The notes: generated from the letters alone by a model not told the origin. Numbered from the stretch's first letter, positions 35,602-48,747 are shown. The stretch: DNA of 64,000 bases from Thainema sp. (GCA_052168235.1 JBQLZK010000008.1:90607-154606); one strand, 5' to 3'. Program-made: numbers and translations.

Positions 35602-36528
35602 CTAACTAAACCCTAGAAATTGTTTTAAGTCTGGAAGATATCGATCCATAACATCAACATTTTCAAGTAGAAGCTGTCTAAAGATAGCTGATGATAGATT
35701 TTCACCCGCCAAATTGATAGCTGTTCGACATCTTAAATCTCCATCTTCTAAATCTATCTCAAAATTGCCTATTGATAGGTCATAGTTGAATTGGGAGATA
35801 GATACAGCGCAGGCTTGTCTCCAAGCTTGTGGGATAGGTTCTGGAAATACTGAATATATAGCACACTCGCTTTTTGATTCATCTATTTTGATTAAACAAA
35901 TCCAATTTCCATTTTTGCCTTGGTATTTCAATCGCAAGATTTCAGGGTTGACTTCCTCAAACTTACTGTTGCTGCTTTGCAAATAGCCTGAAATTTTCGT
36001 CTTAATTGAAGAAGGTTGACTCAACTCAAATAAAGAACTAAATTGCTTGGGATTGGCCCAAAATGTCTGGTATCCAAACTTTAGTTCTCCCATTCCATCT
36101 AGCTCTGAAGGCAAATCTTCAAGCTGTTTGAATTCTGAGGCTAGCCAATTTTCAGTAAACAACCAAAAGTTATCTTCAGCATCCCAGCTAATTTGAATCA
36201 AATAATCAGCAATTAGTTCTGGTGCTGAACATTGCTGAAAGAGTGTATTCGTTAACGACGGCTTTAAGAGCAAATGAACCTCAACATCTTGTTGATCTAA
36301 ATCTGCATTTGAATTTATCAGTATCTGGTCAGCCAGTAAATTAAACAATGCTTCTTGTTTGATCGTTTGATAAGATGCATAACTGACATTGACCACTATT
36401 TTACATGTGGCTGGATTTGCACTGTCCTCATCATGCTCAAGGCTAATCTGAATCAGGCTTGTTTTAAGCCGTTGATTTCGACTAGTTCGAAAAATTAAAT
36501 CAGCCTGCAAATTGTGCTTACTTTTCAT
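35602..36528 (-). CDS. YbjN-domain protein (T3SS-chaperone-like fold at C-terminus)
   Basis: YQGKNGNW.C, YSVFP, NYDLSIGNFEIDLEDGDLRCRT. Confidence 0.8.
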   Translation of the reverse strand: MKSKHNLQADLIFRTSRNQRLKTSLIQISLEHDEDSANPATCKIVVNVSYASYQTIKQEALFNLLADQILINSNADLDQQDVEVHLLLKPSLTNTLFQQCSAPELIADYLIQISWDAEDNFWLFTENWLASEFKQLEDLPSELDGMGELKFGYQTFWANPKQFSSLFELSQPSSIKTKISGYLQSSNSKFEEVNPEILRLKYQGKNGNWICLIKIDESKSECAIYSVFPEPIPQAWRQACAVSISQFNYDLSIGNFEIDLEDGDLRCRTAINLAGENLSSAIFRQLLLENVDVMDRYLPDLKQFLGFS

Positions 36529-36577
36529 TAGAGAACCTCACAAACGAACAGAGAGCAGTAATTCTGTTTTCTAGATA

Positions 36578-36681
36578 TATAGCGATTCTTGCGCTAATAA
36601 AGGAGGAGTTATTTTTTGAAAGCCACGCTCAGCGCGGCTTCCAAAAAATAACTTGTACCCCAGTAGCCCAGGAAAGGCTAT
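36578..36681. mobile_element. palindromic miniature element, TATAGC family
   Basis: ATAGCGATTCTTG...CAGGAAAGGCTAT ends; central AGTTATTTTTTG.AAGCC.CGC/GCGCGGCTTCCAAAAAATAACT stem. Confidence 0.6.
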
Positions 36682-36798
36682 CTTAATTCCTATACAACTG
36701 AGGTACGTAGGAATATTTCTCTATTTGTGACCGAGCAACACCTCTGTGTTTCACCTCTACAGTTCACCAGTCCAAGAAACGCTGCCGAATATCCCATC

Positions 36799-47120: not shown

Positions 47121-47178
47121 TGGTAAAGTACATTTGAAAAAACGCTTGGCCGATGCGAGAGGGGGAGAACGAAATAAC

Positions 47179-47409
47179 CTAACGGTGCGCTCTTTGGGGC
47201 TGGAGAATCGGCACTAAGTCTCCGTCCTGCTCTTGCCAAATCTCCCAGCGAATTTGGCTGCGGGGAACCAGCCTTTGATTGGCAAACTTGAGCGTGCCCT
47301 CTAAAGTTGTCCAGCTTTTGGCTTTGGTCGGATCGGCACAAAAGCGCGGCTCGATATCTTTCCAGCGTGCGTGAATAAACCCTAAACCCGAAACTTGAAT
47401 TCGATACAT
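47179..47409 (-). CDS. small hypothetical protein
   Basis: 76-aa ATG ORF with GAGGGG RBS, just after the DUF4255 stop. Confidence 0.65.
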   Translation of the reverse strand: MYRIQVSGLGFIHARWKDIEPRFCADPTKAKSWTTLEGTLKFANQRLVPRSQIRWEIWQEQDGDLVPILQPQRAHR

Positions 47410-47430
47410 AATGCCGATTGCCCCTCGCTC

Positions 47431-48747
47431 CTACAGCACCAACACCTTCGGCCCGATGTACCAATTAAACGTGGGACTATCCGGCTGTCGATCCACCTCC
47501 AGTAAACTCTCGGCTCCGTCCACCAGCACCCGCACCAGATACTCCCCCGCTTTCACGTCGCGAATCGCCACCGTCACCGTTTGCGTTTCCTCACTGCGCT
47601 CTTGGGCATCAAAGAGATACATAGCCGGATCATCGGTTGTCCATTCGTTCAGTCCCAGCACCACCCGCTGCGTCGGCGTGACGGCTAGATTCAAATCCGC
47701 CTGAATCACCGCGTCGCGCAGTTCCGTACCGCTGCCATCTACGGCATCCAGCCGCACAGCCGTGACGTTGGGCCGCAGGACAAAGGGGAAAACGTTGGAT
47801 TCAGTAGCCTGCTTTTGCACAGGTGCGATCGCAGTTGCGGTCATCGTTGCCGCCGTGCCACCTGATAGAGAAATTCGCTCAGGTGTAGCCCGATGAACCA
47901 CTTGTAGACTCTGAACCCCAGCTCGCAGTGCCGACTGAGGCAGCATCGACAGCGGCAGCACGATTTCGGTGTCGCTGACTTCGGGGGGAACTACCTCCAC
48001 ACCTCCGATTCGCACCTGGGTCACGGTGTGTTTGAGATGCCAACCTCGAATGACAATTTGGCTGGTTAAGATAATCGGGTCAAATTTGCTGCTTTGCGCG
48101 TAAACTTCTTGAATGACGGGCTGTCCAGCCAGAGCGGTTACTCCGGCCAAGTGGCGATCGCGCACGGGCAGGGCGCGTGGCACCTGATCTTCACCGTCGA
48201 TCATCACCACCGTAATTTTGTAGGCCAGGGACAGCACGTAGGCCGTCTGGAAAAATACTGACCAGACTTTTGACATGTCTTCTAAACTCAAATCCAGCGG
48301 TAAGACGGAAATCTGCTGAATTTGGTCAGCTAAGTCAGACGCAGCCAAAAAGCCAAAGGTATTGTCCGAAATCGTATCGACAATTTGCCGCGATTCGATC
48401 ACGGCTCGATCGCTCAGCGCCCGCACGATGCTGCCCATCAACCGCTGCGGCTCTAACTCAATATTGTTGCCATAAAAGCTGATCATGTAGTGCAGCTCCA
48501 GCGCGGTCTGCCGCTTGGAACTGTTGCGATTACGAGATCGCAAAACGGTGGCATCGGGATTTTGCAGGGCGGCGTTGCGGTTGACCTGATACAGAAAAAT
48601 ATTTGCCCCGGTTTCGGGTGTGCCGCTGCCAATCTGGTTGGGCATCACGGTGGTGACGCGAGCACCCTCTACGTCTCGCTGCACCGCAGCCTGAAGCATC
48701 CGCTGAAGAACAGCCGTCACGGTTGCGATCGCAAGATGGTTGCTCAT
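47431..48747 (-). CDS. DUF4255 / Pvc16 (Afp16)-like eCIS protein
   Basis: MSNHLAIATVTAVL, NIFLYQV..N, LELHYMISFYG, SLEDMSKVWS.F, Y.LSLAY; GGAGAG RBS before ATG 48747. Confidence 0.88.
   Translation of the reverse strand: MSNHLAIATVTAVLQRMLQAAVQRDVEGARVTTVMPNQIGSGTPETGANIFLYQVNRNAALQNPDATVLRSRNRNSSKRQTALELHYMISFYGNNIELEPQRLMGSIVRALSDRAVIESRQIVDTISDNTFGFLAASDLADQIQQISVLPLDLSLEDMSKVWSVFFQTAYVLSLAYKITVVMIDGEDQVPRALPVRDRHLAGVTALAGQPVIQEVYAQSSKFDPIILTSQIVIRGWHLKHTVTQVRIGGVEVVPPEVSDTEIVLPLSMLPQSALRAGVQSLQVVHRATPERISLSGGTAATMTATAIAPVQKQATESNVFPFVLRPNVTAVRLDAVDGSGTELRDAVIQADLNLAVTPTQRVVLGLNEWTTDDPAMYLFDAQERSEETQTVTVAIRDVKAGEYLVRVLVDGAESLLEVDRQPDSPTFNWYIGPKVLVL

What the first reader, a model, noticed from the sequence alone, without database searches (positions are those of the whole stretch)
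35602..48747. Stand-alone eCIS cargo/loading module with a polymorphic effector array
Seen: a co-oriented run of DUF4255/Pvc16-like gene, two tiny ORFs, Afp15/Pvc15-type ATPase, three DUF4157 paralogues and a YbjN-domain gene. It sits tail-to-tail with the secDF operon, and no sheath, tube, spike or baseplate gene is in the 64 kb. Established: these three families are hallmark eCIS genes, and Pvc15 is implicated in cargo loading. Inference: a split CIS whose loader and interchangeable warheads are encoded apart from the needle, or a needle-independent use of these genes.
Basis: partly seen in the sequence, partly recalled or inferred. Interest (0 to 1): 0.85.

Follow-up and report, generated by a model that had tools for sequence, protein, structure and literature searches.

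The report
Scattered injection-system genes sharing one control box
This stretch encodes the cap, the cargo-loading motor and three swappable toxin-like cargo genes of a phage-tail-like injection machine whose other parts lie at three other places in the same cyanobacterial genome, and all the pieces carry the same short DNA motif in front of them.

Summary
On the minus strand of 35602-48821 lie a Pvc16-type cap gene, two conserved small genes (76 and 75 aa), a Cis15-type AAA+ ATPase, three DUF4157 cargo genes and a YbjN-domain gene. The genome, a cyanobacterium, holds one contractile injection system (CIS) gene set split over four loci: small cap, sheath and tubes on C29, baseplate on C6, spike on C62, and this arm on C8. 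Two orphan cargo genes lie elsewhere. Six related genomes keep the arm next to the sheath; six others are split at various points. The arm is under purifying selection (dN/dS 0.014-0.088 against the congener), so it is not a relic. The cargo genes share an N-terminal ~300 aa and have unrelated C-terminal domains found in 0 of 40 relatives. The congener has one different cargo gene in the same slot beside secF. Two things appear new. A 16-18 nt palindromic box sits 62-77 nt upstream of eight scattered units and 128 nt upstream of the spike unit. The YbjN gene has the fold of a type III secretion chaperone and is CIS-linked in 12 of 13 related loci. Verdict: a split CIS; needle-independent use is unlikely. 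New variant of a known kind.

The parts
47431..48744 (-). Large cap (tail-terminator) subunit, Cis16/Pvc16 type, 437 aa from the conserved start MSNHLAIATV. N-terminal cap domain plus two Ig-like C-terminal domains.
   Evidence: Pvc16_N 140.2 bits. The start is conserved in homologues. AF2 model pLDDT 82.5. Foldseek hits to solved CIS caps: 7adz, 7b5i, 9qgn, 9gts, 6j0f. dN/dS 0.014 against G001.
47179..47409 (-). Conserved small gene s76 (76 aa), function unknown.
   Evidence: 18 nucleotide differences of 231 but only 1 amino-acid difference against G001. 54-58% identity in three other loci, between cap and s75 in L056.
46893..47120 (-). Conserved small gene s75 (75 aa), function unknown; always between cap and ATPase.
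   Evidence: tblastn 45-93% identity in G001, G007, G023, G037, G014, G028, G013 and G008. dN/dS 0.069. No Pfam or NCBIfam hit.
44803..46887 (-). Cis15/Afp15/Alg15-type AAA+ ATPase (694 aa as the longest ORF; start uncertain), the presumed cargo loader.
   Evidence: AAA 92.4 bits and WHD variant 69.9 bits. Walker A GSGTGKT and Walker B DEAD are invariant in 19 sequences. Relatives lie in CIS loci of many phyla. dN/dS 0.088.
44725..44742 (.). CIS box (ACTAGACAAAAGTCTAAT), 65 nt upstream of the cargo 3 ATG.
42579..44660 (-). Cargo 3 (693 aa from M45): shared N-terminal region, DUF4157, then a unique C-terminal domain.
   Evidence: eCIS_core 107 bits. Shared N-terminus. The C-terminal domain matched only itself in the 5.8-billion-cluster word search and 0 of 40 relatives.
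42469..42486 (.). CIS box (perfect 7-nt inverted repeat ACTAGAC-ATAA-GTCTAGT), 68 nt upstream of the cargo 2 ATG. A -35-like hexamer abuts it.
40380..42401 (-). Cargo 2 (673 aa): shared N-terminal region, DUF4157, then a C-terminal domain of an uncharacterised HExxHxxE family (putative zinc peptidase).
   Evidence: eCIS_core 113.6 bits. The C-terminal family has 146 representative clusters. 18 of 40 scanned carry DUF4157. H, E, H and E are invariant.
40190..40207 (.). CIS box (ACTAGACCAATATCTAAT), 65 nt upstream of the cargo 1 ATG.
36799..40125 (-). Cargo 1 (1108 aa from M40): shared N-terminal region, DUF4157, then an ~800-aa C-terminal region of unknown function.
   Evidence: eCIS_core 108.8 bits. 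C-terminal homologues are only 3 cyanobacterial DUF4157 proteins, 36-48% identity. 0 of 40 relatives.
36590..36681 (.). Copy of a dispersed ~92-nt hairpin repeat (20-bp stem) between cargo 1 and the YbjN gene. Probably not part of the system.
35602..36528 (-). YbjN-domain protein (308 aa). The C-terminal domain (about aa 170-305) has the fold of type III secretion class I chaperones. A candidate cargo chaperone or adaptor.
   Evidence: Pfam YbjN 18.9 bits, below cut-off. 14 of 14 homologues hit YbjN. Model pLDDT 83. Foldseek hits to YbjN, AmyR, SchA, ExsC, VecA, SicP, SycN-YscB and others. CIS genes lie within ~6.5 kb in 12 of 13 related loci.
48804..48821 (.). CIS box (ATTCGCCTTTAGTCGAAT as read on the gene's strand), 62 nt upstream of the cap ATG. 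It marks the upstream edge of the conserved block.
   Evidence: The same box is in G001. An RNA-library contig of a relative matches up to 48821 and then diverges.
48833..51079 (-). Cache-HAMP histidine kinase directly upstream. Membership in the system is uncertain.
   Evidence: Pfam. Homologues (45-50% identity) lie beside CIS loci in G034_C10 and G012_C15. G001 has a CLC channel gene at this position instead.

Best explanation
The run at 35602-48821 is the cap, loader and cargo arm of the genome's single phage-tail-like contractile injection system (CIS).

The ancestral arrangement is still seen in sister genera: a two-component system, then cap-s76-s75-Cis15 (plus cargo), transcribed divergently from the small-cap, sheath and tube operon. 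In this genus the cluster has been broken up. The small cap, sheath, tubes and a giant ORF are on C29. gp25, Baseplate_J, the P2-I-like gene and accessories are on C6. VgrG and a PAAR-like gene are on C62. The large cap, s76, s75, Cis15, three cargo genes and the YbjN gene sit beside secDF on C8. Two more cargo genes stand alone on C34 and C59.

How it most likely works:
- Inferred from AlgoCIS and PVC work: the AAA+ ATPase recognises the conserved N-terminal region shared by all five cargo proteins, unfolds them and threads them into the tube lumen of the particle. The two cap proteins close that particle.
- Shown here: the N-terminal ~300 aa are shared, the C-terminal domains are unrelated and compositionally foreign, and the cargo set differs between congeners at the same slot.
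- Inferred: the scattered units are kept in one regulon by a palindromic 'CIS box' (TMGAC-N4-GKCKAAT). It lies 62-77 nt upstream of the start codons of eight units and 128 nt upstream of the spike unit. It is probably bound by the REC-GerE response regulator that is conserved next to these systems.
- More speculative: the YbjN-domain protein, which has a type III secretion chaperone fold, acts as a general chaperone or adaptor. It would hold cargo in a loading-competent state or hand it to the ATPase.

The confidence of 0.8 is for the core claim, that this is the cap, loader and cargo arm of one split, functional CIS. I put the box as a regulatory site at about 0.6 and the chaperone role of YbjN at about 0.4.
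For: Gene content.

One gene set in four loci, each flanked by unrelated genes within its contig. No T6SS VipB.

Arrangement in relatives. Of 13 relatives with an orthologous sheath (at least 75% identity), 6 have the ATPase 2-5 kb from the sheath on the same contig (G006, G007, G014, G022, G023, G024). 6 are split at various points (G001, G008, G012, G013, G028, G037). 1 (G011, 1840 contigs) cannot be judged.

Named genomes. The cap lies directly upstream of the ATPase in 63 of 74 loci with enough upstream DNA. Of 51 loci with at least 8 kb on both sides, 7 had no recognisable structural gene, and 5 of those 7 are among the 9 cyanobacterial loci.

Purifying selection against G001: cap 0.014, s75 0.069, Cis15 0.088, sheath 0.033, against secD 0.038 and secF 0.050. 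s76 has 18 nucleotide but 1 amino-acid difference.

Cap fold.

Cargo architecture and polymorphism. Cargo GC is 0.43-0.48 and YbjN 0.37, against 0.55-0.56 for cap and ATPase.

Loading mechanism in the closest studied system: passages of bioRxiv 10.64898/2026.05.27.728243.

CIS box.
- The exact pattern has 13 distinct sites in 7.54 Mb, and 7 lie upstream of CIS units on C29, C6, C62, C8 (two), C34 and C59. The C62 site was found after the pattern was fixed.
- In the window there are 7 matches at 4 sites, against 1.36 +/- 1.2 in shuffles; 0 of 100 shuffles reached 7.
- The box is conserved at about -58 to -81 upstream of the small-cap or sheath gene in G008, G012, G013, G023 and G028, and upstream of the relocated ATPase in G012.
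- In named loci, 22 of 31 hits fall in 8 cyanobacterial loci of 80.

The REC-GerE regulator sits directly upstream of the cap in 7 related loci.

YbjN.
Against: No experiment or transcript map for this strain was available, so co-expression of the four loci is inferred.

The box pattern was derived from the CIS sites themselves. Only the C62 site and the sites in relatives are independent. 6 of the 13 exact sites are not at CIS genes (4 inside ORFs, 2 intergenic). No box at up to 1 mismatch was seen in G007_C75, G014_C11 or the G037 loci. The YbjN gene has none at up to 2 mismatches. The promoter-like hexamer count in the region is at chance level (18 against 16.2 +/- 3.6).

The window's YbjN protein is below Pfam's cut-off, and nothing shows that it binds cargo.

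The genome is a 205-contig draft, so distances between loci are unknown.

No tail fibre was recognised. Whether particles are released, as in an eCIS, or stay inside the cell, as in Anabaena, is open.

The functions of the C-terminal domains are unknown: PDB sequence and profile searches gave nothing.
Confidence: 0.8

Rival explanations
1. Needle-independent use: the ATPase and the DUF4157 proteins work without a contractile particle, for example as a stand-alone unfoldase with secreted or intracellular metallopeptidases.
For: No sheath, tube, spike or baseplate gene lies within 64 kb. In 7 of 51 named loci with full flanks, no structural gene was recognised within 10 kb of the ATPase.
Against: The arm starts with a structural cap gene whose fold matches solved CIS caps. 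The genome holds exactly one complete complementary set of sheath, tubes, baseplate and spike under equally strong purifying selection. The same box precedes the structural operons and the arm. Sister genera have the arm inside the cluster.
Confidence: 0.05
2. Relic: the cluster was shattered by rearrangement and the pieces are decaying or no longer work together.
For: Toxin-antitoxin and Fic genes sit at break points: BrnT/BrnA and Fic after the CIS_tube gene on C29, and MNT/HepT after Cis15 in G012. A DUF4157 fragment lies on C113. A truncated cargo N-terminus lies in G012.
Against: All reading frames are intact. dN/dS is 0.014-0.088, like secD and secF. The split is shared with G001, and G012 is split at a different point. 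The upstream box is retained at every unit. As a weak hint, a contig in two RNA libraries of a 90-95% alike relative spans Cis15 to the cap. DNA in those libraries is not excluded.
Confidence: 0.07
3. The YbjN-domain gene is an immunity or antitoxin protein for the adjacent cargo, or an unrelated regulator like AmyR or YbjN. It is not a cargo chaperone.
For: It lies directly downstream of a cargo gene, the usual place of immunity genes. Enterobacterial YbjN and AmyR are described as regulators in the titles of PDB entries 6vu7 and 5frk. Its GC content is very low, 0.37. It is separated from cargo 1 by a repeat hairpin and has no box.
Against: The YbjN domain is conserved (31-41% identity) next to cargo genes whose C-terminal domains are unrelated. 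There is only one per array, and in G023 and G033 it sits among baseplate and spike genes. This fits a general partner of the conserved part or of the machine better than a specific immunity protein.
Confidence: 0.3
4. The shared upstream motif is only inherited sequence from duplication of cargo cassettes and of promoter regions, with no regulatory role.
For: The five cargo genes are paralogues whose 5' leaders align. The pattern was derived from these sites. Genome-wide counts at 1-2 mismatches are near chance.
Against: The box also precedes four units that are not cargo paralogues (small cap and sheath, gp25, VgrG, large cap), at 62 nt from the start for three of them and 128 nt for VgrG. 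The exact 16-mer TCGACCAAAGTCTAAT is kept upstream of the small-cap gene in four genera and in two named cyanobacteria, while the flanking intergenic sequence diverges. It moved with the ATPase in G012.
Confidence: 0.2

Closest known systems
AlgoCIS cargo loading (Alg15 AAA+ with Cgo1/Cgo2), Algoriphagus machipongonensis; passages of bioRxiv 10.64898/2026.05.27.728243 read
   Same: The cargo has a system-specific N-terminal region, then DUF4157, then a variable C-terminal domain. An AAA+ ATPase of the Afp15 type is encoded beside cap and cargo. The cargo proteins of one system share their N-terminal sequence.
   Different: There the genes lie in one cluster of a Bacteroidota eCIS. Here the arm is separated from sheath, baseplate and spike, there are five cargo genes (two orphan), and a YbjN-domain gene and two small conserved genes accompany the ATPase. 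Loading has not been tested here.
Anabaena sp. PCC 7120 thylakoid-anchored CIS (PMC8894136; passages read)
   Same: It is a cyanobacterial CIS with a two-protein cap (Cis16A and Cis16B). This genome also has two Pvc16_N proteins (180 and 437 aa). Both have DUF4157 proteins as putative cargo. The window's cap model matches the 7b5i cap.
   Different: Anabaena has one contiguous cluster (all3313-all3327 plus alr3311/3312). Its main text never mentions an ATPase (0 occurrences of ATPase, AAA, Afp15 or Cis15). Here the CIS13-like protein has no predicted membrane helix and the P2-I-like protein is short (361 aa), so thylakoid anchoring cannot be assumed.
Photorhabdus virulence cassette Pvc15/Pvc16 and payload N-terminal packaging signal (recalled from the literature; also cited in the passages)
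   Same: A cap plus an AAA+ ATPase plus payloads recognised through an N-terminal signal.
   Different: PVC payloads lack DUF4157 (stated). PVC genes form one operon, and payload genes sit at its 3' end.
Type III secretion class I chaperones with the export ATPase (SicP-SptP, SycH-YopH, CesT-Tir, ExsC; PDB hits)
   Same: The fold of the YbjN-domain protein matches. The logic matches too: a small chaperone, an effector with an unfolded N-terminal region, and an unfoldase ATPase.
   Different: This is a different machine with no sequence similarity. Binding is not shown. The protein has an extra N-terminal domain (aa 1-135) of another fold.
eCIS-associated toxins with N-terminal DUF4157 (Geller et al. 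2021, PMC8213781; passages read)
   Same: DUF4157 with HExxH sits at the N-terminus of diverse toxin domains, often without an adjacent immunity gene. GerE-domain regulators lie next to eCIS operons.
   Different: That survey and the later classifier (PMC11297309) are operon-centred, so cargo encoded away from the structural genes falls outside their frame.

Membership tests
CIS cap / tail terminator (Afp16, Pvc16, Cis16; Pfam Pvc16_N) | Pvc16_N domain above the curated cut-off | tested here: met
   140.2 bits against 27.
CIS cap / tail terminator (Afp16, Pvc16, Cis16; Pfam Pvc16_N) | Fold like solved CIS cap subunits | tested here: met
   Model pLDDT 82.5. Foldseek: 7adz 3.2e-7, 7b5i 5e-7, 9qgn, 9gts, 6j0f.
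CIS cap / tail terminator (Afp16, Pvc16, Cis16; Pfam Pvc16_N) | Sits on the distal end of the sheath-tube in the particle | not testable with these tools
   Needs cryo-EM or mass spectrometry of particles.
Afp15/Pvc15/Alg15-type AAA+ loader | C-terminal AAA+ module with intact Walker A and Walker B | tested here: met
   AAA 92.4 bits. G490-T494 and D545/E546 are invariant in 19 sequences.
Afp15/Pvc15/Alg15-type AAA+ loader | Encoded beside the cap gene in CIS loci | tested here: met
   The cap is directly upstream in 63 of 74 named loci with at least 1.5 kb upstream, and in relatives.
Afp15/Pvc15/Alg15-type AAA+ loader | Needed for cargo loading but absent from the finished particle | not testable with these tools
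   Shown for Alg15 only.
DUF4157 CIS cargo (Cgo1/Cgo2-like) | eCIS_core/DUF4157 domain with HExxH | tested here: met
   107-114 bits. H222, E223 and H226 are invariant in 7 sequences.
DUF4157 CIS cargo (Cgo1/Cgo2-like) | N-terminal region shared among the cargo proteins of one system, upstream of DUF4157 | tested here: met
   All five G000 proteins share aa 1-105 at 46-71% identity.
DUF4157 CIS cargo (Cgo1/Cgo2-like) | N-terminal region intrinsically disordered | not tested
   No disorder predictor was run.
DUF4157 CIS cargo (Cgo1/Cgo2-like) | Protein found in the tube lumen of particles | not testable with these tools
   Needs particle proteomics.
Polymorphic toxin array | Conserved N-terminal part joined to unrelated C-terminal domains | tested here: met
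   BLASTP similarity ends at about aa 300 in all pairs. G000 and G001 are 72-93% identical over the first ~300 nt and unalignable in the C-terminal domain.
Polymorphic toxin array | Cognate immunity gene directly downstream of each toxin gene | tested here: not met
   Gaps of 137 and 177 nt between cargo genes hold no ORF of at least 50 aa on that strand. Only the YbjN gene follows cargo 1.
Polymorphic toxin array | C-terminal domains are toxic | not testable with these tools
   One C-terminal domain belongs to an HExxHxxE family. The others have no recognisable family.
YbjN family / type III secretion chaperone-like fold | Pfam PF10722 above the cut-off | tested here: inconclusive
   The window protein scores 18.9 bits against a cut-off of 22. 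14 of 14 aligned homologues match at E <= 0.01, best 7.9e-14.
YbjN family / type III secretion chaperone-like fold | alpha-beta-beta-beta-alpha-beta-beta-alpha chaperone fold | tested here: met
   Model pLDDT 83. Foldseek hits at E 1.7e-4 to 1e-2 to YbjN, AmyR, DR_1245 and more than 12 T3SS chaperones.
YbjN family / type III secretion chaperone-like fold | Binds the N-terminal region of a secreted effector | not testable with these tools
   No binding data. See Tried and rejected.
Thylakoid-anchored CIS (Anabaena type) | Two-protein cap (Cis16A plus Cis16B) | tested here: met
   Two Pvc16_N genes: 180 aa on C29 and 437 aa in the window.
Thylakoid-anchored CIS (Anabaena type) | Cis13 with a transmembrane domain and Cis12 with a long extension | tested here: not met
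   The CIS13-like 457-aa protein has no hydrophobic segment. The Tail_P2_I protein is 361 aa. Two downstream accessory proteins each have one predicted membrane helix.
Extracellular CIS (released particle) | Tail fibre or receptor-binding protein, and release from the cell | not tested
   No tail fibre was recognised among the genes scanned. No dedicated search was made.

The most novel reading that the evidence does not exclude
Cyanobacterial contractile injection systems are run as dispersed regulons rather than as operon clusters. A conserved palindromic CIS box, read by the REC-GerE response regulator encoded beside the sheath operon, ties together the sheath, baseplate, spike and cap-loader units and every cargo gene, wherever they lie in the chromosome. 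New cargo genes would join the system simply by carrying the box and the shared N-terminal loading region. A type III secretion chaperone-like YbjN protein would serve as the general cargo chaperone or adaptor for the AAA+ loader. That would be a chaperone-plus-unfoldase logic in a phage-tail machine, convergent with type III secretion.
Probability: 0.3. Interest if true: 0.75.

Novelty: new variant of a known kind. Interest (0 to 1): 0.62.

Why it matters
Surveys of these injection systems find them as gene clusters and look for cargo next to the cluster. If a working system can be scattered over four or more loci, with orphan cargo genes elsewhere, such surveys undercount systems and cargo. 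This would matter most in cyanobacteria, where 5 of 9 named ATPase loci with full flanks had no structural gene within 10 kb.

The shared upstream box gives a simple, testable handle for finding all members of the system in a genome, including cargo without known domains, and for finding the regulator.

The YbjN-domain protein is a concrete candidate for a missing step in cargo loading, which the latest work still calls mechanistically unclear. A defined loading region plus chaperone plus ATPase set would also interest those who engineer these particles for protein delivery.

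Tried and rejected
Complex prediction. Complex prediction was run with the cargo N-terminus (alignment A3, 240 aa) and two copies of the YbjN C-terminal domain (A2, aa 168-308). It gave no verdict (score 0.00, mark 0.32). This says nothing for or against binding.

C-terminal domain function.
- PDB sequence searches with the large cap, the three cargo C-terminal domains and the CIS13-like protein gave no usable hit.
- A PDB profile search with the HExxHxxE family gave nothing.
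- Protein Atlas look-ups for two C-terminal domains gave only low-recognition hits without families ('DdrB domain protein' 0.96 at recognition 2064). These were not used.
- NCBIfam added only a sub-threshold CIS13_fam hit for the C6 457-aa protein.

Earlier notes of this scan: nothing for this genome on these words.

Wrong frame. The 125-aa ORF 47087-47464 was first taken as the second tiny gene. It was rejected because the 76-aa frame is the conserved one.

Box pattern. The first pattern, ACTAGACNNNNGTCTAAT at up to 2 mismatches, gave 20 genome hits, about what my hand estimate gives for chance. It was replaced by the degenerate pattern that also fits the structural operons.

Sequencing runs. 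Of 10 runs, X1 and X2 (DNA, 0.40-0.45 of words) may be the source sample and are not independent. In the RNA-library runs X7 and X10, the cargo and YbjN part had no cover at 90% likeness.

Literature. Searches for a described split or scattered CIS, or for YbjN or chaperones in CIS, found nothing on point. One search returned 7 papers, none on point by title or abstract. One search returned 0 papers, one search returned 0, and one search returned 1 review that is not on point. Only the held library was searched. Supplementary tables of PMC8894136 (gene list, Supplementary Table 1) were not opened and may show whether Anabaena has an ATPase gene.

Full report
WHAT IS THERE

Searches confirm the minus-strand run. 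It holds:
- a Pvc16_N/DUF4255 gene (140.2 bits);
- two small ORFs;
- an AAA+ ATPase with an N-terminal winged-helix variant;
- three eCIS_core/DUF4157 genes (107-114 bits);
- a YbjN-like gene (18.9 bits, below the cut-off of 22).

secD, secF and a 145-aa membrane-protein gene converge on the run from the left. A Cache-HAMP histidine kinase gene lies upstream. Pfam scans of the other window ORFs found ARC6/Ftn2, DUF3038, DUF4335, DUF3153, PAS kinases and similar, and no sheath, tube, spike or baseplate family (flanking genes). These families, together with the names attached to homologues, point to a cyanobacterium.

Gene models were refined in three ways.
- The cap starts at the conserved MSNHLAIATV (window 48744).
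- Cargo 1 and cargo 3 start at the conserved M[KR]KRQYA (40125 and 44660). The public collection's own gene call for cargo 3 is 693 aa, which agrees.
- The second small gene is the 76-aa frame 47179-47409, not the 125-aa ORF.

THE REST OF THE MACHINE

The window is G000:C8:90607-154606. G000 is 7.54 Mb in 205 contigs and 99.99% complete. Whole-genome family searches gave:
- one sheath and four gp19-type tube matches on C29;
- one Baseplate_J and one gp25 on C6;
- one Phage_GPD on C62;
- two Pvc16_N genes, one in the window and one at C29:60280;
- six eCIS_core matches: three in the window, one each on C34 and C59, and a fragment on C113;
- no T6SS VipB.

Annotation of those loci gave the following.
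- C29: a histidine kinase and a REC-GerE regulator. Divergent from them run the small cap (180 aa), the sheath, three tube-family genes, two unknown genes, another tube-family gene, a 2645-aa ORF and a CIS_tube gene. BrnT/BrnA and Fic follow.
- C6: gp25, Baseplate_J, a Tail_P2_I-like gene, a CIS13-like gene, a WD40 protein and two large unknown genes, in the middle of a 169-kb contig.
- C62: VgrG and a DUF4280 (PAAR-like) gene, among unrelated genes.

Each locus is flanked by unrelated genes inside its contig. The split is therefore not an effect of contig ends.

RELATIVES

Thirteen of 40 relatives have a sheath at least 75% identical to G000's.
- In six (G006, G007, G014, G022, G023, G024) the Cis15 gene lies 2-5 kb from the sheath gene on the same contig. 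In the three loci I annotated (G007, G014, G023), the order is cap-(s76)-s75-Cis15, divergent from the sheath operon. G007 carries the baseplate genes and VgrG in the same cluster.
- Six are split, at different points:
  - G001 (same genus) is split like G000.
  - G037 has the regulator, cap, s75 and Cis15 away from the sheath.
  - G012 keeps the cap by the sheath and has moved only Cis15 plus cargo.
  - G008 and G013 keep cap and s75 by the sheath.
  - G028 keeps the cap by the sheath and has s75-Cis15 elsewhere.
- G011 is too fragmented to judge.

G001 has two further contiguous CIS clusters. G000 has only the split one.

Among 80 named loci from many phyla, the cap is directly upstream of the ATPase in 63 of 74 loci with enough upstream DNA. 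Of 51 loci with at least 8 kb on both sides, 7 show no recognisable structural gene. Five of those 7 are cyanobacterial, out of 9 cyanobacterial loci. Detection was by tblastn with G000 proteins, which favours cyanobacteria, so the contrast is conservative.

The REC-GerE regulator, usually with its kinase, sits directly upstream of the cap in seven related loci. In G000 the break therefore falls between the regulator and the cap.

IS THE ARM ALIVE?

dN/dS against G001 is 0.014 for the cap, 0.069 for s75, 0.088 for Cis15 and 0.033 for the sheath. This is like secD (0.038) and secF (0.050). s76 differs at 18 of 231 nucleotides but at only 1 residue.

In two metatranscriptome libraries, contigs 90-95% alike cover secF and u145 up to 35591 and then run on with unlike sequence. 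One contig covers Cis15 through the cap up to 48821. Its flanks are not those of G001. This is only a weak hint of transcription, because DNA in such libraries is not excluded.

THE CAP

The AF2 model (36-sequence alignment, pLDDT 82.5) has an N-terminal domain that matches the caps of AlgoCIS, the Anabaena CIS, PVC and the Streptomyces CIS. It also has two Ig-like C-terminal domains. Together with the 180-aa Pvc16_N protein on C29, this mirrors the two-protein cap reported for Anabaena.

THE CARGO GENES

The five G000 proteins share aa 1 to about 300 at 43-59% identity. This covers a conserved leader, the motif GQPLQAKLTIGEPNDKYEQEADRVA, an acidic linker, and DUF4157 with HELTH. Beyond that point they share nothing.

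This is the architecture described for AlgoCIS Cgo1 and Cgo2. In that system the N-terminal region is required for loading and the AAA+ Alg15 is required for loading but is absent from particles.

The C-terminal domains:
- Cargo 2 belongs to an uncharacterised family (146 representative clusters at E <= 1e-3). It is always C-terminal, 18 of 40 scanned members also carry DUF4157, and it has an invariant HExxHxxE. It is probably a zinc peptidase.
- Cargo 1 has only three homologues, all cyanobacterial DUF4157 proteins.
- Cargo 3 matched only itself.
- None of the three was found in 40 relatives.

In G001 the slot between Cis15 and the secF-side gene holds one cargo gene. Its first ~300 nt are 72-93% identical to cargo 3. 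Its C-terminal domain is unrelated and absent from G000.

GC content is 0.55-0.56 in the cap and Cis15, 0.43-0.48 in the cargo C-terminal domains and 0.37 in the YbjN gene.

No ORF that could encode an immunity protein lies between the cargo genes.

THE CIS BOX

Aligning the cargo 5' regions showed a palindrome about 65-77 nt upstream of each ATG. Similar sequences stand upstream of the small-cap, gp25 and large-cap genes.

The degenerate pattern TMGACNNNNGKCKAAT has 13 distinct sites in the genome. Seven are upstream of CIS units:
- C29:60203, 62 nt from the small-cap ATG;
- C6:81559, 62 nt from gp25;
- C62:37978, 128 nt from the VgrG ORF start;
- window 48806, 62 nt from the cap;
- window 44725, cargo 3;
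- C34:42894;
- C59:1721.

Cargo 1 and cargo 2 are one mismatch off the pattern. The C62 site was found only after the pattern was fixed. The other six sites are four intragenic and two intergenic, next to unrelated genes.

In the window, 7 matches at 4 sites compare with 1.36 +/- 1.2 in shuffles.

In relatives, the identical 16-mer TCGACCAAAGTCTAAT stands 58-74 nt upstream of the small-cap gene in G008, G012 and G023. Variants stand about 80 nt upstream of the sheath gene in G013 and G028. A variant stands 73 nt upstream of the relocated Cis15 in G012. G001 has the box at the cap and at its cargo gene. No box at up to 1 mismatch was found in the G007, G014 or G037 loci.

In the named loci, 22 of 31 hits at up to 1 mismatch fall in 8 cyanobacterial loci. 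These include the exact 16-mer in Laspinema and in another cyanobacterial MAG.

I read this as a conserved operator or activator site. That it is bound by the REC-GerE regulator is inference, in line with the statement in PMC8213781 that GerE-domain genes accompany eCIS operons.

THE YbjN GENE

Homologues of its C-terminal domain occur in 12 of 40 relatives. Of 14 places, 13 were fetched; G011:C1132 was not. In 12 of the 13, a DUF4157 gene or a baseplate or spike gene lies within about 6.5 kb, and the YbjN gene is usually the next gene after the last cargo gene. The exception is a 9.5-kb contig.

All 14 aligned members match Pfam YbjN. The model (pLDDT 83) matches YbjN, AmyR and DR_1245, and many type III secretion class I chaperones.

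The domain is conserved while the neighbouring cargo C-terminal domains are not, and there is one per array. I therefore favour a general chaperone or adaptor role over immunity, but binding is untested.

No paper in the held library combines YbjN with 'contractile injection'.

COMPARISON AND NOVELTY

The gene families and the loading logic are known. What differs is:
- the dispersed organisation, and its frequency in cyanobacteria;
- the shared upstream box;
- the CIS-linked YbjN/T3SS-chaperone-like gene;
- the two conserved small genes between cap and ATPase.

I found no description of these in the searches made, which cover only the held library.

Whether the particles are released or stay anchored in the cell as in Anabaena remains open. 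The two-protein cap fits the Anabaena type. The Cis13 membrane domain and the Cis12 extension were not found.

Noticed in passing
G000 C29:66385-74322 (L013:3385-11322): A 2645-aa ORF with no Pfam or NCBIfam hit sits at the tape-measure position, between the last tube-family gene and the CIS_tube gene. Only its last ~260 aa align with relatives (about 30% identity). If it is the length ruler, the particle would be unusually long.
   Followed up: partly
G000 C29:74875-77232; L046:19776-L047:439 (G012 C95): Toxin-antitoxin and Fic genes sit exactly at break points of the CIS cluster. BrnT/BrnA and Fic follow the CIS_tube gene in G000. An MNT/HepT pair lies between Cis15 and the cargo gene in G012.
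   Followed up: no
window 36590-36681: A ~92-nt element with a 20-bp hairpin lies between cargo 1 and the YbjN gene. It is a dispersed repeat: 55 BLAST rows over many contigs of the genome. Contigs of two metatranscriptome libraries also match it at high depth.
   Followed up: partly
G000 C6:70495-77404 (L022:4495-11404): A conserved accessory trio follows the baseplate genes here and in G001, G007, G026 and G028: a CIS13-like protein (457 aa, no membrane helix), a WD40 protein (787 aa, one predicted membrane helix) and a 943-aa protein (one predicted membrane helix). They are possible membrane anchors.
   Followed up: partly
window 48833-51079; L162:323-1795 (G034 C10); L147:13193-14146 (G012 C15): Homologues (45-50% identity) of the Cache-HAMP histidine kinase that precedes the arm also lie beside a cargo array in G034 and downstream of the tube operon in G012.
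   Followed up: partly
G012 whole genome: One relative has 28 eCIS_core/DUF4157 matches spread over at least 20 contigs, against 1-6 in the other four genomes searched. This is a large expansion of cargo genes.
   Followed up: no
G000 C34:42986-45667 (L014:6986-9667): The orphan cargo gene on C34 carries the N-terminal leader motifs twice (a second GFDLT...PLQAKLT copy). Its C-terminal domain has a GDGHHR stretch, which from memory resembles the ParB-like nuclease motif. This was not tested.
   Followed up: no
PMC8894136 main text: The paper on the Anabaena CIS never mentions an ATPase (0 occurrences of ATPase, AAA, Afp15 or Cis15). Its 15-gene cluster may lack Cis15, which could then lie elsewhere in that genome too. 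The supplementary gene table was not opened.
   Followed up: no
window 18188-25039: A 2283-aa hybrid histidine kinase with at least nine PAS domains. It is unrelated to the finding as far as seen.
   Followed up: no
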